Below are positions 24,912 to 64,000 of a DNA stretch of 64,000 nt, in pieces. The DNA lies in the IMG/VR virus record IMGVR_UViG_3300032038_000073, positions 1,950 through 65,949 of that record; one strand, given 5' to 3'. The notes below the pieces were generated by a model. That model saw only the letters and a program-made list of their open reading frames with translations, searched no databases and was not told the origin of the DNA. The stretch is from a virus (Duplodnaviria > Caudoviricetes). A program made the translations under genes and the position numbers. Every line of letters begins with the position of its first letter. The first letter of the stretch is position 1.

Positions 24912-24987
24912 TGCAGGATAGAGAAGTTCGGTCAATCTCGCAAGGCTCATAACCTTGAAATCGGGGGTTCAAATCCCTCTCCTGCGA
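24912..24987 (+). tRNA. tRNA-Met (CAT), initiator-like
   Basis: TGCAGGA/TCCTGCG acceptor, CAAGG-CTCATAA-CCTTG, GGGGG-TTCAAAT-CCCTC; no encoded CCA. Confidence 0.9.
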
Positions 24988-55053: not shown

Positions 55054-57030
55054 ATGAGCAACATGAAAATTAACAGCATTGCGCTGAACGACTTCAAGGG
55101 ATGTGCGAGTGCTGAATACAAGTTTGGCCCTGGACTGAACGTGGTACTTGGACCGAATGGATCAGGCAAGACTACAATCGCTGACGGCTATATGTACTCA
55201 ATGAGTGGCAAGGACTACTCACTGACTGCTAACCCGACAATCGCCCCCAACAACAAGCCCGCCGATTCAGCAGAAACCCAGGTCACTGTCAACTGTGAGG
55301 TAGACGGAAAGCCGGTGGAGATTATCAGGTCGCAGAAAACCCGGTTCTCAAAGCCCGATGCAAACGGCAATCGCAAGACCACCACGGTCAACACCTACAC
55401 GATCAATGCGGTAGCCATGGCTGAGAGGGATGCTGTTAAGGCATTTGCTGAACGTGGCATTGATATGGACCTGTTCACGGTTCTGGCCCATCCCGAAGTA
55501 TTTGTCAATCAGGCAATGGGCGATAAGAAGTCGAAGGACAAGGCCCGGATGACCGTGTTCTCTATGGCAAATCCTCTCCCTGACCTTGAAATCGCTAAGA
55601 AGGCAGGCACAAAGGAACTGGCTGAACTGCTTGAGAACTACACCATTACAGAGATTGGTGAACAGCAGAAGGCTACCAGACGGAAAATTCTTGCTGAGTA
55701 CGGTAAGAACGGTGACATTCTCATTGCGAGAATCAGTGAGGCTCAGAGGCAGATTGTTCCTCTTGAAGATGGCAAGGTTGAATCCCTGACCGCTGCCTTT
55801 GAAGCTAAGAAGGCTGAGATGGCAAAGGCGGTTGAAGCCAAGGCCAATCTCGGAGCGGAACTTACGAGGCTCAACAGGGAGCGTGAGGAAGTCAGTGTGG
55901 CGTTCTTACAGGCGAAGGAACAGGCGAACAAAGACAACAACGACAAGGTTAGTAAGGCCATAGATGCTGCCGTTGCAATGGGCGATAAGGTTCAGGAGGC
56001 AAAGGATAAGCTGAACGATACCCGACTTAAGATTGCCGGTCTTGAGACAAAAATCGAAAGTCTCAAATATGATAAGGGCAAACTTGAAGCCTCTTACGCA
56101 TCGAGAAAGTCCGCTCAGTTTGATGAATCTTCAACTATCTGCCCTACTTGCCATCGTCCTCTTGATAAGAAAGACGCTGACGCTATCCGGGCTGAATTTG
56201 AAAACCGTAAGGCAAAGGATCTGAAAACCTTTGGGGATGGAATCGCAAAGAGCGAGGCTGAAATCAAGAAGTATTCAGACAACCTCGCCAGGGGTAAGAA
56301 AGTCCTGAAAAAGGACGAGGCAACAGTGAAAGCTCTTGAATCAGAACGTGAAGCGCTGCGCCAGAAGGTTGACGAGGCCAAGAAGGTGGCCTGTTCCCTT
56401 CATGACAATGAGGTTCCTGGCTACAAGGAGGCGGTCGAGAAAATCAACGCCATTGATGCCAAGAGAGCGGAAATCGAGGACAAGATTGCAAAGGCTCCCG
56501 ATACCAACGCCATGGCAGATGAAGCCTCCCATATCCGTTACGAAATCGAGGCTGAGAAGGCAAGGATCGCTCGTGTTGCAGATGCCAAGGCCAGGGTTGA
56601 TGAACTTGGAAATAAGCGTACTGAATACGAACAGGCAATCGCCAGAACGGAGATGATTGAAGCTCAGATTGCTCTTTTCGGCAGGACGAAGAATGAAATG
56701 CTTACCGAGAGCATCAATTCTCACTTCAAGGTCGTTTCCTGGAAACTCTTTGATTACCAGAAAAACGGCGAATATAAGGAGTGCTTGGTCCCGATGATTG
56801 GCTACACACCTTATGACAGCCTTTCTGGTGGCGAGAAAATGGTCGCTATGGTGGATATTGTGACCACTCTCCAGAGATTCTACGACACCTATCTGCCGGT
56901 CTTTATTGACGAGGCGGGTATCGCTACTGCGGAGACGCTTGCGAAGGTCAAGGAACTGGCAAACACGCAGCTTATCCTGCTGACTGCCAAGGATACAGAA
57001 GGGGGGCAGATTATCGTTGAACATCTTTGA
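55054..57030 (+). CDS. SMC/Rad50-like AAA ATPase
   Basis: GPNGSGKTT, long coiled coil with CPTC hook, LSGGEK signature, VFIDE. Confidence 0.88.
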   Translation: MSNMKINSIALNDFKGCASAEYKFGPGLNVVLGPNGSGKTTIADGYMYSMSGKDYSLTANPTIAPNNKPADSAETQVTVNCEVDGKPVEIIRSQKTRFSKPDANGNRKTTTVNTYTINAVAMAERDAVKAFAERGIDMDLFTVLAHPEVFVNQAMGDKKSKDKARMTVFSMANPLPDLEIAKKAGTKELAELLENYTITEIGEQQKATRRKILAEYGKNGDILIARISEAQRQIVPLEDGKVESLTAAFEAKKAEMAKAVEAKANLGAELTRLNREREEVSVAFLQAKEQANKDNNDKVSKAIDAAVAMGDKVQEAKDKLNDTRLKIAGLETKIESLKYDKGKLEASYASRKSAQFDESSTICPTCHRPLDKKDADAIRAEFENRKAKDLKTFGDGIAKSEAEIKKYSDNLARGKKVLKKDEATVKALESEREALRQKVDEAKKVACSLHDNEVPGYKEAVEKINAIDAKRAEIEDKIAKAPDTNAMADEASHIRYEIEAEKARIARVADAKARVDELGNKRTEYEQAIARTEMIEAQIALFGRTKNEMLTESINSHFKVVSWKLFDYQKNGEYKECLVPMIGYTPYDSLSGGEKMVAMVDIVTTLQRFYDTYLPVFIDEAGIATAETLAKVKELANTQLILLTAKDTEGGQIIVEHL

Positions 57031-57223
57031 TGAAGTCTACAGAAACGGTGAGCCTGACGATGCCGGAGTTATCATCGGTCGCAGAGCAAGTTACTTAGAG
57101 CAGTTCCAGGTCCTCTGGTATGACGGTGTTTATGCTGAATGGTGCTATCCCATTGACATTGTTCGGACCGGCAGAAACTTCAAGGACGAGTTTAAGAAGG
57201 GAGTGATTAAGCATGGCAAATGA
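57017..57223 (+). CDS. hypothetical protein
   Basis: Coupled ORF. Confidence 0.45.
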   Translation: MNIFDEVYRNGEPDDAGVIIGRRASYLEQFQVLWYDGVYAEWCYPIDIVRTGRNFKDEFKKGVIKHGK

Positions 57224-58112
57224 AGTAGCAAAGAACGAGCCTACAAAAATGGGCATTACATCATACCTCACCAATCCGAAGGTAAAGGCTAATGTCGCCA
57301 GCGTGGTCGGTGAGAAGAAGTCTCAGGCGTTTATCTCTTCCATCGTATCAGCGGTGCAGACGAACAAACTTCTGGCTGAATGCACCAATGCGTCAATCCT
57401 CAATGCTGCACTCCTGGGTGAAAGCCTTGAACTTCCCCCCTCGCCGCAGATGGGATTCTTCTACATGGTTCCTTACAAGAACCGGGAGACAGGCGTTTCC
57501 GAGGCTACCTTCCAACTCGGCACAAACGGCTACAAACAGCTTGCTATGAGGAGTGGTCAGTACAAGAAGATTGTCGCTTCTTCAATCAAGGAAGGTGAGC
57601 TGAAATCCTACAATCCCATCACTGAGGAAATCGTCTTTGAGCCTATCATGGACCCGGAAGTGAGAGAAAAGGCTAAGACGGTCGGCTACTATGCCATGTT
57701 TGAGCTTATGAACGGCTATCGCAAGGAAATCTACTGGCCTTACGCAAAGATGGAGGCTCACGCATCTAAGTACAGCCAGACCTACAAGAGCGATAAGAAG
57801 TACAAGTCTAAGAAGTCTATTTGGTCCACCAACTTCGATGCAATGGCTGAAAAGACGATGATCCGTACACTGATTCGCAAGTGGGGCATTATGAGTGTCA
57901 AGAATCAGCAGATGCAGAGAGCGATTGAGGCCGACATGGGCGTTATCAATGACGATGGTTCCGTGACTTATGTGGATAACCAGGTGGATGTGGTTGAAGA
58001 AGCGCATGAAGCGATTGAGGCCGGAGCGAATACCTCCGAGTTCACTGACGCTGAGTTCAACGAGGTCCCGACTGCTGATGAAGTAAACGCTGACAATCCC
58101 TTCGCAGAGTGA
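57213..58112 (+). CDS. recT: RecT-family recombinase
   Basis: LPPSPQMGFFYMVPY...FQLGTNGYKQLAMRSGQY...FDAMAEKT. Confidence 0.9.
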   Translation: MANEVAKNEPTKMGITSYLTNPKVKANVASVVGEKKSQAFISSIVSAVQTNKLLAECTNASILNAALLGESLELPPSPQMGFFYMVPYKNRETGVSEATFQLGTNGYKQLAMRSGQYKKIVASSIKEGELKSYNPITEEIVFEPIMDPEVREKAKTVGYYAMFELMNGYRKEIYWPYAKMEAHASKYSQTYKSDKKYKSKKSIWSTNFDAMAEKTMIRTLIRKWGIMSVKNQQMQRAIEADMGVINDDGSVTYVDNQVDVVEEAHEAIEAGANTSEFTDAEFNEVPTADEVNADNPFAE

Positions 58113-58121
58113 GGTAGCGCA

Positions 58122-58388
58122 ATGATCGTAGTATCCCAAGACGGAAAGACAGTTTTCCCTCTTGAACAGGTGATGCTCGGAATAGAGAAGAAGGTGGGAT
58201 GGAGGGCCGAAGTCAGTTATGATATAGTCCTCTATCCCCTGGGGGCTAATCCTTTAACTGAGGACCCGACGGCGATTGCCGAGTTCACAAAAGAGGAAGA
58301 TGCCGAGGATGCGCTGATGGATTTGCTGAGTAGCTATCAGCGTGATGCGAAGGTGTTCGTCTTTGGCGTATACAAGGAGCAGAAATGA
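58122..58388 (+). CDS. hypothetical protein
   Basis: MIVVSQDG...IAEFTKEEDAEDAL. Confidence 0.55.
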   Translation: MIVVSQDGKTVFPLEQVMLGIEKKVGWRAEVSYDIVLYPLGANPLTEDPTAIAEFTKEEDAEDALMDLLSSYQRDAKVFVFGVYKEQK

Positions 58389-58588
58389 ACAATACCTGTA
58401 CCGGCTGTAAAGATTGCACTAAGAGAACACTTGGCTGTCATAAAGGCTGTAAGACCTACAAAGCCTTCCTCATTTACAACGCTGTTATCAACGCTAAGAA
58501 GGCCGATTATTGCAAGAAAAAGGACAGCGAGATAGAATCCTGCGTCCGTAATGCTCACCGGCGTGGTGGTCCGAAGAGGGAGTTCTAA
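58385..58588 (+). CDS. Cys-rich small protein
   Basis: CTGCKDCTKRTLGCHKGCKTY. Confidence 0.6.
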   Translation: MNNTCTGCKDCTKRTLGCHKGCKTYKAFLIYNAVINAKKADYCKKKDSEIESCVRNAHRRGGPKREF

Positions 58589-58729
58589 TGGATGATGGAA
58601 AGATTGCTCTGATTGTGATTGCTGTGTTGGCACTGCTGATTATCGCCAACATCGGCTTTATAGTCATTGCGGCGAGAAATGACAAGATTAACAAGTAAAA
58701 TGACCAAATTAAACTAAAGGAGAACAAAG

Positions 58730-59422
58730 ATGGCAACTACAAAGAAGGATGAAGCAATCAATATCGTACCGATTCGGAAGAAGTACGCAAGAGTACGCAT
58801 TATCGGCACTTCGCCGCTCATTATCCATGCGTGGAGTGAAAAGGCAAAGCGCATGATGCTTGAAGCACAGCAGAAAACCACTCGCACAAAGAGTAAGCGT
58901 GAGGTCCGCAGACCGTTTGAGGACTTCGTTGATTCCCTTTACTGGCTGACGGAAAAGCCGACTGCTGACACTGACGAGGAACTTGCTGATAAGTTCGGAG
59001 AAGCGATCCAGAACGGTGCAAGGTTCGGTTTCCCGGCAAACTCCATCAAGATTGCAGCAAACTCAGGCGCTTACCGGCTCGGATGGGTCAAAAACCAGAT
59101 GGGACTTCGTGGAGCATACTTCGTCCGTGGCGTAATGAGTGACGGATCAGTGAACAGCGAGTACATTGAGATTCGTGGCGGTTCCCCGGAAATGAGAGAG
59201 GATATGGTCACTGTAGGCATGGGCGGTACGGACCTTCGCTATCGTGGAGAGTTCAAGGACTGGTACTCTGACATTGAGATTGAGTACAACGCCTCTGGTG
59301 ATGTGACCCTGGAACAGATTATCAACTGCCTTAATGCCGGTGGTTATGCGGTGGGCATCGGAGAATGGAGGCCCGAAAAGGACGGTCATAACGGAATGTT
59401 TGAGGTGGCTTACGCAGAGTAA
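58730..59422 (+). CDS. RAMP/Cas7-like protein (Vipr-like effector)
   Basis: N-term strand VRIIGTSPLIIH and C-term glycine-rich loop AGGYAVGIGEWRPEKDGHNGMFEV; directly precedes the GGY-NN array. Confidence 0.75.
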   Translation: MATTKKDEAINIVPIRKKYARVRIIGTSPLIIHAWSEKAKRMMLEAQQKTTRTKSKREVRRPFEDFVDSLYWLTEKPTADTDEELADKFGEAIQNGARFGFPANSIKIAANSGAYRLGWVKNQMGLRGAYFVRGVMSDGSVNSEYIEIRGGSPEMREDMVTVGMGGTDLRYRGEFKDWYSDIEIEYNASGDVTLEQIINCLNAGGYAVGIGEWRPEKDGHNGMFEVAYAE

Positions 59423-59426
59423 ACTT

Positions 59427-59890
59427 GGCAGTTATGGTATGACAAGGCATGGCAAGGTTAGGACCGGTGCGGTATCGTTGGTTAGGGCGTGGCAGTTTGG
59501 GCTTGGATGGGCGGGACAGGGTTTGTCTGGTCAGGATTGGATATGGCAGTTTTGGTTGGGCATTGTTTGTCTTGGCAGGTTCCGGCAAGGTGCGGCATGG
59601 CCCGGATTGGCAGTTGAGGCGAGGAAGGGCGGGTCAGGGCTTGGCTCGTTGCGGTTGGACCCGGTTTGGCAGTTTCGGTGGGACAGGGCAGGGCAACGTG
59701 CAGTCCGTTGCGGTAAGGTATGGCTTGATGCGGCAGTTTTGGTCAGGTGGGCCAGGCCGAGGCAGAGCGTGTTACTGCGTGGTTAGCTTTGGCTTGACAC
59801 GGCAGTTGAGGCATGTTGAGCCGAGGTTGGTCAAGTCGCTGTGGGCCAAGGTATGTCCTGGTGCGAAGGGGCCGGTTAAATATCGGCTCC
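59427..59890 (+). ncRNA. array of 7 guide-like units (GGCAGTTNN plus 9-12 GGY-NN pentamers) ending in a hairpin
   Basis: Units start at 59427, 59491, 59545, 59609, 59668, 59732, 59801; lengths 64, 54, 64, 59, 64, 69, 64; 3' hairpin GGGGCCG/CGGCTCC. Confidence 0.9.
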
Positions 59891-59918
59891 ACCACCAAAA
59901 GACGAAAGGAGTGATAAT

Positions 59919-60452
59919 TTGGTTTTCGAGTTGAAGAAAAATTATTCATGGAGCTACGGCGGTTTCGGCGTTGATGCTAATACGGTAGGCAAGACGCTTG
60001 AGCGGATTGAGGCCGATACCGGGAGCGTTACTAAGGAAAAGTTGCTTGATGCTTCAAGGGCAGAAGATAGCCCGACACATAACCTGTTTGAGTGGAATGA
60101 TGCGATTGCCGGTGAAAAGTACAGGCTTGAACAGGCAAGAATGGCGATTACCCATTTGAGGGTTGAAGTTGTCGAGGGGGAGACGGAACCTCAGACATTT
60201 ACTCCGACAATCGTTGAGAAGGTTCCCAAAAAGGTCCGGGCGTTCACTGCGACTGACTATTCCCAGGGGGCTACAAAGTTGGCAAACTTCATGTCAACCG
60301 ATACGGCTCTCGCAAATGAGGAATATCGCAGAACGATTATCAAAAATGCGCTTGGCGAGTTTGAACGCACGAAAGACAAGTATTCGTTCTTGAGTGAACT
60401 GGCGGCACTTTATGAAGCGATTGATCTTGAAGCTGGGAGGTATGGCGTATGA
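59919..60452 (+). CDS. accessory protein downstream of the array
   Basis: AAAGGAG RBS plus TTG; LLDASRAEDSPTHNLFEWNDAIAGEKYRLEQAR. Confidence 0.7.
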   Translation: MVFELKKNYSWSYGGFGVDANTVGKTLERIEADTGSVTKEKLLDASRAEDSPTHNLFEWNDAIAGEKYRLEQARMAITHLRVEVVEGETEPQTFTPTIVEKVPKKVRAFTATDYSQGATKLANFMSTDTALANEEYRRTIIKNALGEFERTKDKYSFLSELAALYEAIDLEAGRYGV

Positions 60453-60745
60453 ATGGACCGATTAACAGGCTGACTAACTCTGACATTCACCATCTTGCGG
60501 TAGAGAAGGGTGTGAAACTCAGAGAGATAGCTGTTCAGCTTGGCGAGTTTACCAATGAGTTCTTCGCAGAACTTCACGCATCGGAAATGAGTGATACAAG
60601 GAAAGCGGTAGTCGTAGGAGCGATTGAGGAGGTGGCAAAGAAGCATGAATCGCAGGGAAATCATGTTGAAGCGGAGCCGGAAGGTGAGGACGGAAATCAC
60701 GAACACGAGTTACTCACTGAGGAAGGGGGCAACTCCGAATCGTGA
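60449..60745 (+). CDS. small HTH-like protein
   Basis: DIHHLAVEKGVKLREIAVQLG. Confidence 0.5.
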   Translation: MNGPINRLTNSDIHHLAVEKGVKLREIAVQLGEFTNEFFAELHASEMSDTRKAVVVGAIEEVAKKHESQGNHVEAEPEGEDGNHEHELLTEEGGNSES

Positions 60746-60775
60746 GCAGAGACGGCTTATGGAGAGGAAGAAAAA

Positions 60776-61486
60776 ATGACGCTGAAAACGGTCGCATCTG
60801 GCTCAGACGGTAATCTCCATATCCTCAAGGATGGCAACGGTAAGATGCTCCTGATTGAAGCCGGAATCAATATCAAGGCTATCAAGGCCGGTTGTGATTG
60901 GGATGTAACCAACATTGTAGGATGTATCGTCACGCATCACCACAAGGATCATGCTGCTTCGGTGACAAACCTTGAGCGCATGGGAATCCCGGTCTGCAAG
61001 TCTTACTCGGAAGATGGTTCCCACAAGGCTGTCAGGTTTGGCGACTACCAGATAGTACCTTTTCCCCTGGATGATGCTGAACATGAGTGGGTCCACACAA
61101 ACGGTGATGGTTCTTCTTGCCCGATTTACGGATACCTTATTCATCACCCGGAGATGGGTTGCATGGTCTATCTGACCGACTGCCAGTTCTGCCGGTGGAC
61201 TTTCAAGAGATATGCTCCGTCCACAATCCTTATCGGCATTGACTACCAGGAAGAGTACGTTACCGAAGAGGAAACCAAAAGGCGGCATGTCTATGGCGGT
61301 CATATGAGCCTTGACACGGCTATTGACTTCATAAAAGCCAATCAGACACCAAAGCTGAGACGAATAATCGCCTGCCACTTGTCAAGCGAAGCCACTGAGC
61401 CGGATGAAGTTTTTGCAGAACTTGTTAATAATTTTTCCGGGGTTGATTGCAGAATCGCAGTTCCCGGACAGAAATGTGAGGTTTAA
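60776..61486 (+). CDS. metallo-beta-lactamase-fold nuclease
   Basis: ASGSDGN, VTHHHKDH, YLTD, GHMS, ACHLS. Confidence 0.88.
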   Translation: MTLKTVASGSDGNLHILKDGNGKMLLIEAGINIKAIKAGCDWDVTNIVGCIVTHHHKDHAASVTNLERMGIPVCKSYSEDGSHKAVRFGDYQIVPFPLDDAEHEWVHTNGDGSSCPIYGYLIHHPEMGCMVYLTDCQFCRWTFKRYAPSTILIGIDYQEEYVTEEETKRRHVYGGHMSLDTAIDFIKANQTPKLRRIIACHLSSEATEPDEVFAELVNNFSGVDCRIAVPGQKCEV

Positions 61487-61489
61487 GCA

Positions 61490-61936
61490 ATGAATATCGT
61501 AATTATGATGGGACGTTTGACAAGGGACCCGGAAGTTCGCTACACGCAGGATCAGAAGCCTATCGCTAATATCTCTCTGGCGGTTGACAGGCGGATGAAG
61601 CGTGAAGGACAGCCGGACGCTGATTTCTTCAATGGCTTTGTAGCTTTTGGCAAGACCGCTGAGTTCATCGAGAAGTATTTGCACAAAGGCTCGAAGGTAG
61701 TTGTCCAAGCTCATTTGCAGAACGACAATTACCAGGGCAAGGATGGTCAGACGGTCTACCGTGACAGGTTCTACATTGATAGCATCGAGTTCGCTGAAAG
61801 CCGTGCTGCATCTCAGGCTAACAATCAGGGTCAGCAGAGCAATAATCAGGGCCGCTCTCGTCAGCAGTCTCAGGCAAGGCAGGATGACTTTATGAACATC
61901 CCGGACGGCATTGACGAGGAGTTACCGTTCAACTAA
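61490..61936 (+). CDS. ssb: single-stranded DNA-binding protein
   Basis: MGRLTRDPEVRY...AFGKTAE...DEELPFN. Confidence 0.96.
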   Translation: MNIVIMMGRLTRDPEVRYTQDQKPIANISLAVDRRMKREGQPDADFFNGFVAFGKTAEFIEKYLHKGSKVVVQAHLQNDNYQGKDGQTVYRDRFYIDSIEFAESRAASQANNQGQQSNNQGRSRQQSQARQDDFMNIPDGIDEELPFN

Positions 61937-63335: not shown

Positions 63336-64000
63336 ATGAGGTATGGACTTCCGTACAAGGGGAGCAAGAACCAGATTGCCGAGTGGGTGATCGAAAATCT
63401 GCCAAGTGGCGGTACGTTTGTTGACATGTTCTGCGGTGGGTGTGCCGTCACACATGCTGCGTTGCTGTCTGGACGTTGGGATCGCTACATTATCAACGAC
63501 ATTGACGGACGGATGCCGAAACTCTTTCTTGACGCCATTCACGGCAAATATACGCCTGAAAACTGTTCTGAGTGGATAAGTCGTGAGGAGTTTCACCGGT
63601 GCAAGGATGAAGATGCCTTTGTAGCAATCTGCTGGTCGTTTGCCAATAACGGCGTTGATTACATTTATGGAAAGAATGTCGAGCCGTTCAAAGAAGCACT
63701 TCATTACGCTTGTTTTGTGAACGATACCTCGAAACTTGAGGCGCTTGGTTTCCGTGTGGAGAAAAGTGACAAACCATCGGTGGCTGAGCGAATTGCTGAT
63801 TATCGAAATCAGCTCAACGCAAACACACTTCGCACGGATTTAAACGGCGCAGAAAGGTTAGAAGCTGTTGAACGCCTACAGAGCCTTGCGAGCCTACAGA
63901 GCCTTGCGAGCCTACAGAGCCTTGCGAGCCTACAGAGCCTTGCGAGCCTACAGAGCCTTGCGAGCCTACAGAGCCTTGCGAGCCTACAGAGCCTTGCGAG
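63336..64000 (+). CDS. Dam/D12-class adenine methyltransferase (truncated by window end)
   Basis: LPYKGSKNQIA...VDMFCGGCAV...IINDI. Confidence 0.88.
   Translation, partial: MRYGLPYKGSKNQIAEWVIENLPSGGTFVDMFCGGCAVTHAALLSGRWDRYIINDIDGRMPKLFLDAIHGKYTPENCSEWISREEFHRCKDEDAFVAICWSFANNGVDYIYGKNVEPFKEALHYACFVNDTSKLEALGFRVEKSDKPSVAERIADYRNQLNANTLRTDLNGAERLEAVERLQSLASLQSLASLQSLASLQSLASLQSLASLQSLASLQSLA
63876..64000 (+). repeat. 18-bp in-frame tandem repeat (LQSLAS), at least 6.9 copies
   Basis: CTACAGAGCCTTGCGAGC repeated to the window edge. Confidence 0.97.

What the first reader, a model, noticed from the sequence alone, without database searches (positions are those of the whole stretch)
59427..59864. 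Decoded array: seven guides spelled by variable dinucleotides
Seen (manual parse): leaders are GGCAG+TTAT/TTTG/TTTT/TTGA/TTTC/TTTT/TTGA (9 nt, resetting the phase), and unit lengths differ only by multiples of 5. Of 75 pentamers, 38 start with exact GGY and the other 37 differ by one base (G at position 1 in 68, Y at position 3 in 71). NN strings: U1 AT-AA-AT-AA-TA-CC-GC-AT-TG-AG-GT; U2 TT-TG-GG-AG-TT-TG-AG-TG-AT; U3 TG-AT-TT-TT-AG-CC-AA-GC-AT-CC-TT; U4 GA-AG-GG-AG-TT-TC-GC-TG-CC-TT; U5 GG-AG-AG-AA-GC-CC-GC-AA-AT-TT-GC; U6 CA-GG-AG-GA-AG-GT-AC-GT-TA-TT-TT-AC; U7 AT-GA-GA-TG-AA-GC-GG-AA-AT-CT-GC. Inference: each unit carries 18-24 informative nt. With a 1-nt skip the code could ignore codon wobble positions. 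I found no convincing target in this window by eye.
Basis: partly seen in the sequence, partly recalled or inferred. Interest (0 to 1): 0.92.

Follow-up and report, generated by a model that had tools for sequence, protein, structure and literature searches.

The report
Phage VIPR guide-RNA array, staggered type
The 438-base five-letter rhythm is a guide-RNA array of a VIPR system, a CRISPR-like, phage-borne DNA silencer first described in 2026. Three of its seven guides spell conserved motifs of the DNA-replication genes of a rival phage family, so it is a genuine new example of a known kind.

Summary
There are seven GGCAGTT-delimited units of 64, 54, 64, 59, 64, 69 and 64 nt. Of 75 pentamers, 38 are exact GGY and 37 are one base off. 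The periodicity lies 16 SD above shuffles.

This is a VIPR locus (bioRxiv 10.64898/2026.04.26.720920, .720927 and 2026.10.15.759431):
- The upstream 230-aa gene is a Vipr. It hits PDB 'SUSP1 Vipr protein' at E=1e-8, has a Csm3/Cas7-like fold, and conserves the GGY-reading residues.
- The array is of the 'staggered' type, with a 1-nt overlap at GGCA|G.
- The downstream 177-aa gene is the clade's accessory gene.
- 80 of 84 related loci show the same layout.

Decoded with the published 1-nt-skip rule:
- Guide 2 matches at least 115 IMG/VR contigs exactly, against 0-3 hits for equally specific patterns from other guides. It spells IQLQNLPQNH of a family-A DNA polymerase.
- Guides 3 and 7 hit the SSB and SNF2 helicase genes of the same ~46-kb phages.
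- These matches appear only with a 1-nt skip.
- There is no self-target, and no target was found for guides 1, 4, 5 and 6.

Two refinements: the 'leader' dinucleotide pairs with the target, and the junction GGCAG does not.

The scan has noted VIPR-type arrays in hundreds of other genomes. Verdict: new member of a known kind. RNA expression was not tested.

The parts
58688..58715 (+). Promoter-like site (TTAACA-16-TAAACT) just upstream of vipr; candidate operon promoter
   Evidence: Consensus scan only, 9 of 12 matches. Weak and not tested.
58730..59422 (+). vipr gene: 230-aa Vipr protein, a stand-alone RAMP/Cas7-like RNA-binding protein
   Evidence: A profile of 16 homologues hits PDB 36pp 'SUSP1 Vipr protein' at E=1e-8. 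The AF2 model (pLDDT 83) gives Csm3/Cas7 chains as top Foldseek hits, E about 2e-5. H33, R172, E212, W213 and R214 align with SUSP1 H17, R138, D177, W178 and R179 and are invariant in the family. No Pfam hit; phrog_4652.
59427..59431 (+). First GGCAG junction motif, 4 nt after the vipr stop; marks the start of the array
   Evidence: Sequence. The junction consensus GGCA|G is seen at 446 junctions in 80 related loci.
59431..59495 (+). vrRNA unit 1: 13 pentamers, 12 guide dinucleotides plus terminal GGCAG
   Evidence: Parse. No target found.
59495..59549 (+). vrRNA unit 2: 11 pentamers. The guide spells IQLQNLPQNH of a family-A DNA polymerase on the opposite strand.
   Evidence: At least 115 IMG/VR contigs match 9 interior NN exactly, and 112 of them also match the leader NN. 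A site with at most 1 mismatch occurs in 22 of 401 sampled Clostridia genomes, against 0 for the backwards control. Unit is 98% identical in L001.
59549..59613 (+). vrRNA unit 3: 13 pentamers. The guide spells KGIACGLNNLQK of an Enc34/Gp2.5-type ssDNA-binding protein.
   Evidence: In loci fetched with unit 2 only, there are 36 sites at 22/24, 19 at 21 and 19 at 20, under skip 1 only; shuffles reach 18 at most. In frame in L116 SSB, motif from residue 151.
59613..59672 (+). vrRNA unit 4: 12 pentamers, conserved 100% in L001
   Evidence: No convincing target: 0 hits with 18 specified bases, and 20 hits with 16 specified bases that do not extend.
59672..59736 (+). vrRNA unit 5: 13 pentamers
   Evidence: One IMG/VR seed hit, with no extension, so chance.
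59736..59805 (+). vrRNA unit 6: 14 pentamers, the most degenerate GGY scaffold
   Evidence: No IMG/VR seed hit.
59805..59864 (+). vrRNA unit 7: guide dinucleotides 1-10 spell D[IF]xDWNAGxI of an SNF2-family helicase on the coding strand. The last pentamers do not match.
   Evidence: 4 sites at 21/24, 9 at 20 and 6 at 19, under skip 1 only, in loci fetched with unit 2. In frame in L116 SNF2 helicase, motif from residue 350.
59859..59897 (+). Terminal hairpin closing the array, with no T-run after it
   Evidence: RNA fold -21.3 kcal/mol, z -4.5. 100% identical in L001.
59919..60452 (+). Accessory gene of the clade (candidate vap): 177 aa, fold unknown; RBS GAAAGGAG at 59904-59911
   Evidence: A homologue lies on the same strand in 76 of 84 vipr loci, in the order vipr-array-vap or vipr-vap-array. 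phrog_15946, no Pfam. AF2 pLDDT 78, no significant fold match.

Best explanation
This is a VIPR (Viral Interference Programmable Repeat) locus of a temperate Clostridia-type phage, made of vipr, a staggered vrRNA array and an accessory gene, transcribed together.

Proposed mechanism:
- The array yields seven guide RNAs of 11-14 pentamers.
- Vipr protomers polymerise along each RNA, one per pentamer. They bury G1, G2 and Y3 and present N4 and N5.
- The presented dinucleotides pair with double-stranded DNA in which every third base is skipped (5 RNA bases per 3 DNA bases). A guide can therefore follow a conserved peptide motif whatever the wobble bases are.
- Guides 2, 3 and 7 are aimed at the DNA polymerase A, Enc34-type SSB and SNF2 helicase genes of a ~46-kb phage/prophage family common in Clostridia.
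- The likely effect is transcriptional silencing of a rival's replication module.

Shown here:
- Homology and fold of Vipr.
- The anatomy of the array and its conservation across the family.
- Hypervariability of the NN positions.
- Enrichment of targets under the 1-nt skip, in frame, on both DNA strands.
- Absence of self-targets.

Inferred from the published SUSP1 and P. fulva work, not shown here: RNA processing at GGCA|G, filament formation, DNA binding and silencing.
For: Vipr identity:
- PDB SUSP1 Vipr hit at E=1e-8, with the G-loop aligned.
- Csm3/Cas7 fold.
- The five GGY-contacting residues named in 10.64898/2026.04.26.720927 are conserved.

Array:
- GGY/NN pentamers with 9-16 repeats per unit, as published.
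- The 1-nt overlap matches the 'staggered arrays' of fig. S18.
- 80 of 84 vipr loci carry a same-strand array, with 446 GGCA|G junctions and a modal unit size of 10-12 pentamers.
- 361 distinct guides, of which only 10 are shared between loci.

Targets:
- Unit 2 seed: at least 115 exact IMG/VR contigs, against 0, 1, 3 and 0 for equally specific patterns of units 4, 5, 1 and 6.
- The leader NN, which was not part of the seed, matches in 112 of 115.
- Units 3 and 7, not used to fetch those loci, hit the same phages under skip 1 only.
- All three sites are in frame, with the skipped base on the wobble position.
- Both DNA strands are targeted, which fits DNA rather than mRNA recognition.
- A unit 2 site with at most 1 mismatch occurs in 22 of 401 Clostridia genomes; the backwards control gives 0.
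- A target phage (G006) comes from the same metagenome sample as the nearest VIPR relatives, judged by the shared IMG/VR sample number.
- The phage's own genome has no site above shuffle level and no homologue of the targeted genes.

Family-wide test:
- 11 guides reach at least 95% NN match under skip 1, against 0 under skip 0, 0 under skip 2 and 0-1 in shuffles.
Against: - There is no RNA evidence. The discovery paper's text names sRNA-seq confirmation only for other array types.
- Four of the seven guides have no identifiable target.
- Sequence homology to SUSP1 Vipr is significant only over the C-terminal ~68 residues.
- Foldseek TM-scores to Cas7 are modest (0.45-0.49).
- The scaffold is degenerate: only 38 of 75 pentamers are exact GGY, and G2 is often T.
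- Units 3 and 7 match at 83-92%, not perfectly.
- The accessory protein has no recognisable DNA-binding or nuclease fold.
- Guides that spell conserved motifs will match many genomes by construction, so the breadth of hits alone does not prove that silencing occurs.
Confidence: 0.9

Rival explanations
1. The locus is a VIPR relic or regulator. The array is transcribed and bound by Vipr, but most units are decayed or serve another purpose such as decoys or self-regulation. The polymerase, SSB and helicase matches would be historical traces of where the guides came from, not active silencing.
For: - Four of seven guides have no target.
- Only half the pentamers are exact GGY.
- Units 3 and 7 carry fixed mismatches to every target seen.
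Against: - The Vipr residues that read GGY are invariant, and the protein is 66% conserved column by column.
- Units 2-4 are kept 98-100% identical between two phages whose other units were replaced.
- Unit 7, one of the most degenerate units, still has skip-1-specific targets.
- The discovery paper reports frequent internal degeneracy in vrRNAs.
Confidence: 0.07
2. The array is a protein-wrapping or structural nucleic-acid element with no guide function. Candidates are a TRAP-like RNA that winds around a ring of 11-13 subunits, a RecT/SSB loading site in 5-nt register, a G-quadruplex tract, or origin iterons.
For: - 11-14 triplets with 2-nt spacers per unit resemble the TRAP binding site (from my own knowledge).
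- RecT and SSB genes lie nearby.
- GG every 5 nt could form two-tier quadruplexes.
Against: - The array is linked to a Vipr/RAMP gene, not to a ring protein, in 80 of 84 loci across phyla.
- A scaffold-only role does not predict hypervariable NN positions, or that they spell in-frame conserved peptide motifs of other phages only at a 1-nt skip.
- The strand bias is absolute: G-rich on the vipr strand, with one weak minus-strand call among about 90.
Confidence: 0.02
3. The guides act on RNA, silencing mRNA by antisense pairing, rather than on DNA.
For: - Units 2 and 3 are antisense to the polymerase and SSB mRNAs.
- The structural paper reports that VIPR complexes can pair with ssRNA.
Against: - Unit 7 has the same sense as the helicase mRNA and can pair only with the template DNA strand.
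- Family-wide, top hits lie on both strands, for example sense KGKIAELALGY and IEARVLAWL and antisense IQLQNLPQNH.
- The published work shows that complete filaments need a DNA third strand.
Confidence: 0.03

Closest known systems
VIPR systems with staggered vrRNA arrays (bioRxiv 10.64898/2026.04.26.720920, fig. S18 legend)
   Same: - A stand-alone Vipr RAMP gene, an accessory gene, and tandem GGY/NN pentamers.
- Successive units overlap by 1 nt, so the end of one vrRNA is the start of the next.
- Phage-borne, with no self-targets.
   Different: - The paper's text names sRNA-seq confirmation only for the hammerhead-interspersed and single-vrRNA architectures, and gives no natural targets for staggered arrays.
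- This report supplies targets (the replication genes of a rival phage family).
- It also supplies the guide boundaries: the first pentamer after the junction pairs, and the junction GGCAG does not.
- Which of types I-VII this clade belongs to could not be read from the held text.
Type II VIPR of Escherichia phage SUSP1 and the P. fulva prophage (experimental exemplars; PDB 36pp)
   Same: - Homologous Vipr, with the G-loop, thumb arginine and beta-sheet histidine conserved.
- 9-16 pentamers per guide.
- The 1-nt-skip code, with the skipped base on wobble positions.
- Several guides converge on one competing element.
   Different: - There is no ~100-nt vrRNA with an invariant 3' tail or pseudoknot. 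Units here are 54-69 nt and separated only by GGCA|G.
- D177 is glutamate here.
- The accessory protein shows no detectable similarity to a known DNA-binding fold.
- The targets are replication genes (PolA, SSB, SNF2 helicase) rather than a satellite recombinase or lysis-lysogeny regulators.
Class 1 CRISPR-Cas backbone (Cas7/Csm3 filament on crRNA)
   Same: - RAMP fold, with Foldseek E about 2e-5 to Csm3 and to type VII and Cas7-11 Cas7 domains.
- One protomer per fixed RNA step, with thumb-driven base flipping.
   Different: - 5-nt step rather than 6-nt.
- Three bases hidden and two read.
- No repeat-spacer array, and no cas1, cas2, cas6 or large subunit.
- Encoded by a phage.
TRAP-type RNA binding sites (11 (G/U)AG triplets with 2-3-nt spacers)
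   Same: Triplet plus 2-nt spacer rhythm, with about 11-13 triplets per unit.
   Different: - No ring-protein gene is present.
- The spacers carry target information.
- Resemblance by rhythm only; rejected.

Membership tests
VIPR system | Vipr protein homologous to characterised Vipr | tested here: met
   The profile of 16 homologues hits PDB 36pp_D 'SUSP1 Vipr protein' at E=1e-8. The best stretch covers profile positions 156-223 of the query and residues 127-188 of the chain. A weak N-terminal stretch is also aligned.
VIPR system | RAMP architecture: RRM core, glycine-rich loop, thumb | tested here: met
   The AF2 model (pLDDT 83) has 44 Foldseek hits at E<=1e-3. All listed top hits are Cas7-family chains (Csm3, Cmr, type VII Cas7, Cas7-11), with TM 0.36-0.49. 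The G-loop GIGEWRPEKDG is invariant. The thumb is assigned by alignment to SUSP1 R138, not by inspecting coordinates.
VIPR system | Residues that read G1, G2 and Y3 (SUSP1 H17, R138, D177, W178, R179) | tested here: met
   By the HMMER alignment these correspond to H33, R172, E212, W213 and R214. All five are invariant in 16 homologues. D177 is replaced conservatively by E.
VIPR system | vrRNA genes made of alternating GGY/NN pentamers, 9-16 per guide, on the vipr strand | tested here: met
   Seven units of 11-14 pentamers. Periodicity lies 16 SD above shuffles. Same-strand arrays occur in 80 of 84 loci.
VIPR system | GGY conserved and NN hypervariable among relatives | tested here: met
   Across 4184 interior pentamers: G 0.94, G 0.77, Y 0.92, and near-even bases at positions 4-5. 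361 distinct guides, 10 shared. Units are swapped between phages whose flanking genes are 96% identical.
VIPR system | Natural targets obey the 1-nt-skip rule, with the skipped base on codon wobble | tested here: met
   Units 2, 3 and 7. Skip 0 and 2 and shuffled guides give nothing. Units 1, 4, 5 and 6 have no target.
VIPR system | No self-targeting at 80% NN match or more | tested here: met
   The best own-genome scores are 16-18 of 22-28, equal to the shuffled-guide maxima.
VIPR system | vrRNAs expressed, processed and bound by Vipr | not testable with these tools
No RNA data were examined.
VIPR system | Sequence-specific dsDNA binding and transcriptional silencing | not testable with these tools
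   Needs biochemistry or reporter assays.
VIPR system | Accessory gene (vap) in the operon | tested here: inconclusive
   A conserved partner gene is present in 76 of 84 loci. It could not be matched to vap1-6, and no DNA-binding or nuclease fold was detected: Foldseek found nothing at E<=1e-3 and VIA best Z was 4.9.
VIPR type II (SUSP1 clade) | Each vrRNA ends in an invariant 3' tail with a pseudoknot | tested here: not met
   Units abut through a 1-nt overlap at GGCA|G with no tail. Only the last unit is followed by a hairpin. The locus is therefore filed under the staggered architecture, not type II.
VIPR staggered array | Successive vrRNAs overlap by 1 nt | tested here: met
   All six internal junctions show a 4-nt step at GGCA|G. 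The same is seen at 446 junctions in related loci.
CRISPR-Cas | Repeat-spacer array and a cas1-cas2 adaptation module | tested here: not met
   The tandem-repeat finder reports only a 10-nt, 2.1-copy row inside the array and no CRISPR-length repeats. The Pfam and PHROG scan of ten ORFs from 55054 to 61936, which span the locus, found no Cas family. Rfam gives no CRISPR direct-repeat family in the window.

The most novel reading that the evidence does not exclude
The staggered-array VIPR clade of gut and rumen Clostridia phages works as a shared arsenal against one rival replication module (Enc34-type SSB, family-A polymerase, D5 primase-helicase, SNF2 helicase).

- Many unrelated guides from different phages converge on the most conserved catalytic motifs of these genes, on either strand, so the rival cannot escape by synonymous change.
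- The conserved GGCA|G junction is a non-pairing punctuation or handle that replaces the 3' tail of type II vrRNAs.
- Some phages that carry the targeted module also carry a VIPR of their own (L040), which would imply an arms race between VIPR phages.
Probability: 0.5. Interest if true: 0.55.

Novelty: new member of a known kind. Interest (0 to 1): 0.4.

Why it matters
VIPR is a newly described class of programmable DNA recognition, and its published experiments rest on two Proteobacteria systems of one type. This locus adds three things:

- A compact seven-guide staggered array from a Clostridia-type phage with concrete, testable guide-target pairs: sites in polymerase A, SSB and SNF2 helicase genes.
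- Evidence that the 1-nt-skip rule holds in this untested architecture.
- A working definition of guide boundaries. The first pentamer after the junction pairs (12 of 18 guides). The junction GGCAG does not (0 of 18).

It also suggests that temperate phages of gut and rumen anaerobes use RNA guides to block each other's replication genes. As a discovery it is not new. The class is in print, and this scan has noted VIPR-type arrays in several hundred other genomes.

Tried and rejected
- Early ideas, held before the PDB hit: a TRAP-like ring wrap, a RecT/SSB 5-nt register, a G-quadruplex tract, origin iterons. All were dropped once the Vipr homology and the NN-coded targets appeared.
- Rfam at gathering threshold found nothing in the region. 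blastn of 58700-60500 against GenBank phages gave only a 75-nt chance-level hit.
- Skip 0, 2 and 3 gave no enrichment. Skip 3 finds only the array itself.
- Unit 1: no site with up to 3 mismatches in five complete target-family genomes. Three IMG/VR seed hits were out of frame with the ORFs there, and two of the three did not extend.
- Unit 4: 0 hits with 18 specified bases. A 16-base seed gave 20 hits, about the chance number, with extensions of 0-1 of 6 (3 of 6 in one).
- Unit 5: one hit, with no extension.
- Unit 6: no hit.
- Whole target genomes G001, G004, G006 and G008 carry sites for units 2, 3 and 7 only.
- Accessory protein: no Pfam hit, no PDB sequence hit, and no fold match. Foldseek found nothing at E<=1e-3. 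The VIA wide search gave a best Z of 4.9, mostly on the C-terminal helices. A weak hint of a winged-helix domain (IdeR N-terminal domain, Z 3.9) is not significant.
- The VIPR type (I-VII) could not be assigned, because the held text and supplement do not say which types have staggered arrays.

Full report
**What is there.** Between a 230-aa ORF (58730-59422) and a 177-aa ORF (59919-60452), both on the + strand, lies a 438-nt G-rich tract.
- Seven units begin with GGCAGTT. Their lengths are 64, 54, 64, 59, 64, 69 and 64 nt, always 5n-1.
- A phase-tolerant periodicity statistic is 197, against 131.4 +/- 4.1 in 2000 shuffles.
- Neighbouring genes are an SbcC-like ATPase, RecT, a metallo-hydrolase, SSB and methyltransferases.
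- The held 'genome' is a 65,949-nt virus record.

**How the identity was found.** Rfam and GenBank phages gave nothing.
- Seventeen IMG/VR relatives of the 230-aa protein all carry a pentamer tract immediately downstream, followed by a homologue of the 177-aa protein.
- A profile of the 230-aa family hit one PDB entry, 36pp 'SUSP1 Vipr protein', at E=1e-8.
- That hit led to three 2026 preprints on VIPR systems. They describe the following:
  - Vipr is a stand-alone RAMP protein.
  - vrRNAs consist of 9-16 GGY/NN pentamers.
  - One protomer binds each pentamer, hiding GGY and presenting NN.
  - The NN pair with double-stranded DNA in which every third base is skipped.
  - Natural targets are competing phages and satellites, with the skipped base usually on the wobble position.

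**Membership.**
- The AF2 model of the protein (pLDDT 83) finds Csm3/Cas7 chains as its best folds.
- The residues that the cryo-EM paper names as reading G1, G2 and Y3 (H17, R138, D177, W178, R179) align with H33, R172, E212, W213 and R214. All are invariant in 16 homologues.
- The array lacks the 3' tail of type II vrRNAs. Instead each unit's last pentamer, GGCAG, shares its final G with the first pentamer of the next unit, GTTNN. This is the 'staggered array' described in the discovery paper's fig. S18 legend, in which vrRNAs overlap by 1 nt.
- A genome-wide scan added 67 prophage loci, from Oscillospiraceae, Acutalibacteraceae, Lachnospiraceae and Christensenellaceae to Rhizobiales and Acidobacteria.
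- My caller found a same-strand array in 80 of 84 loci. There are 446 four-nucleotide steps with the consensus GGCA|G, and the modal unit size is 10-12 pentamers.
- Positions 1-3 are G 0.94, G 0.77 and Y 0.92. Positions 4-5 are near even.
- The accessory gene is present in 76 of 84 loci, as vipr-array-vap or vipr-vap-array.

**Decoding and targets.** With the overlap parse the guides carry 12, 10, 12, 11, 12, 13 and at most 12 dinucleotides before the terminal pentamer.
- No site in the phage's own genome exceeds shuffled-guide scores.
- *Unit 2, first hit.* In an all-against-all test on the first 84 loci, unit 2 hit a family-A polymerase gene in a Christensenella prophage. The match was 20 of 22, with every skipped base on a wobble position.
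  - Equally specific patterns from units 4, 5, 1 and 6 returned 0, 1, 3 and 0.
  - All but three of the 115 encode xIQLQNLPQNH on the opposite strand; those three differ by one or two residues.
  - The leader dinucleotide, not used in the seed, matched in 112 of 115. The junction AG matched in only 29.
- *Units 3 and 7.* In those loci, fetched without reference to the other guides:
  - Unit 3 has 36 sites at 22/24, 19 at 21 and 19 at 20.
  - Unit 7 has 4 sites at 21/24 and 9 at 20.
  - These appear under skip 1 only. Skip 0 and 2 and shuffles stay at 19 or below.
- *The targeted genes.* In L116 the three sites fall in frame in an Enc34/Gp2.5-type SSB (KGIACGLNNLQK), the polymerase, and an SNF2 helicase (DFADWNAGKI). 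All belong to one replication module, which also holds a D5 primase-helicase.
- *Strand.* Units 2 and 3 are antisense to the genes and unit 7 is sense. This fits DNA recognition rather than mRNA recognition.
- *The target phages.*
  - The target genome is about 46 kb: two 'complete' contigs are head-to-tail duplicates.
  - A unit 2 site with at most one mismatch occurs in 22 of 401 sampled Clostridia genomes. The backwards-read control gives none.
  - One target contig (G006) bears the same IMG/VR sample number as the two closest VIPR relatives.
  - The VIPR phage has no homologue of the targeted proteins.

**Family-level support.** All 371 called guides from the 84 loci were tested against the target loci.
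- 11 reach at least 95% and 29 reach at least 90% NN match under skip 1.
- Under skip 0 and skip 2 the counts are 0 and 2. In shuffles they are 0-1 and 0-4.
- Different phages' guides spell other conserved motifs of the same module:
  - KGKIAELALGYG, GPKFVENIV and IEARVLAWL in the polymerase;
  - DMGLGKTVI in the helicase;
  - NVWEPKS in the SSB.
- Among 18 distinct guides with an interior match of at least 94%, the first dinucleotide matches fully in 12 and the junction dinucleotide in none. The guide therefore starts at the pentamer that shares the junction G, and the GGCAG pentamer does not pair.
- Unit 3 contains an internal GGCAG followed by GTT in normal 5-nt register. Its targets read straight through it. 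This suggests that the phase slip, not the GGCAG letters alone, marks a boundary.

**Turnover.** The nearest relative is L001, with 96% nucleotide identity in vipr and vap and 100% in the terminal hairpin region. It keeps units 2-4 at 98-100% identity but carries different units in place of 1 and 5-7. Guides are thus exchanged as cassettes inside a conserved frame.

**What remains open.**
- Units 1, 4, 5 and 6 have no target. Seeds gave chance-level, out-of-frame or non-extending hits.
- The accessory protein has no recognisable fold.
- RNA expression and processing could not be examined.
- The type number (I-VII) could not be read from the held text.
- Silencing itself is inferred from the SUSP1 and P. 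fulva experiments.

**Verdict.** The thing is a genuine VIPR locus of the staggered architecture, and hence a new member of a kind in print since April 2026. Earlier notes of this scan report VIPR-type arrays in several hundred other genomes. The added value here is the set of concrete natural targets and the guide-boundary rule for staggered arrays.

Noticed in passing
window 63874-64000: A perfect 18-nt tandem repeat (7.1 copies, running off the window end) lies inside a methyltransferase-like ORF and encodes LQSLAS repeats.
   Followed up: no
L040:10056-12580 (Christensenella sp. MAG prophage): This prophage has its own vipr and a 96-pentamer array. It also carries the SSB-like/family-A polymerase region (ORFs read), where guides of three other VIPR phages, including window unit 2 at 20/22, have sites of 87-91% NN match. 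This suggests VIPR phages target one another.
   Followed up: partly
L047 and L055 (Alphaproteobacteria MAG and Hyphobacterium vulgare prophages): Reciprocal best hits: a guide of L047 matches L055 at 20/22, and two guides of L055 match L047 at 16/18 and 19/22. This may be cross-targeting between related prophages.
   Followed up: no
L007:2674-3153, L015:3712-3893, L022:5426-5848, L019:5735-5803: Some relatives carry a second pentamer array upstream of vipr in addition to the downstream one.
   Followed up: no
G001 (L200-L204) and G004 (L205-L209): IMG/VR contigs of 92.7 and 87.5 kb, rated 100% complete, contain every guide site twice, about 46 kb apart. They are head-to-tail duplicated assemblies of a ~46-kb phage.
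   Followed up: partly
window 59574-59583, 59687-59696, 59761-59770: Units 3, 5 and 6 contain internal GGCAG pentamers in normal 5-nt register, with no phase slip. The targets of unit 3 read through it.
   Followed up: partly
window 24912-24987: This tRNA gene is the only Rfam gathering-level hit in the window.
   Followed up: no
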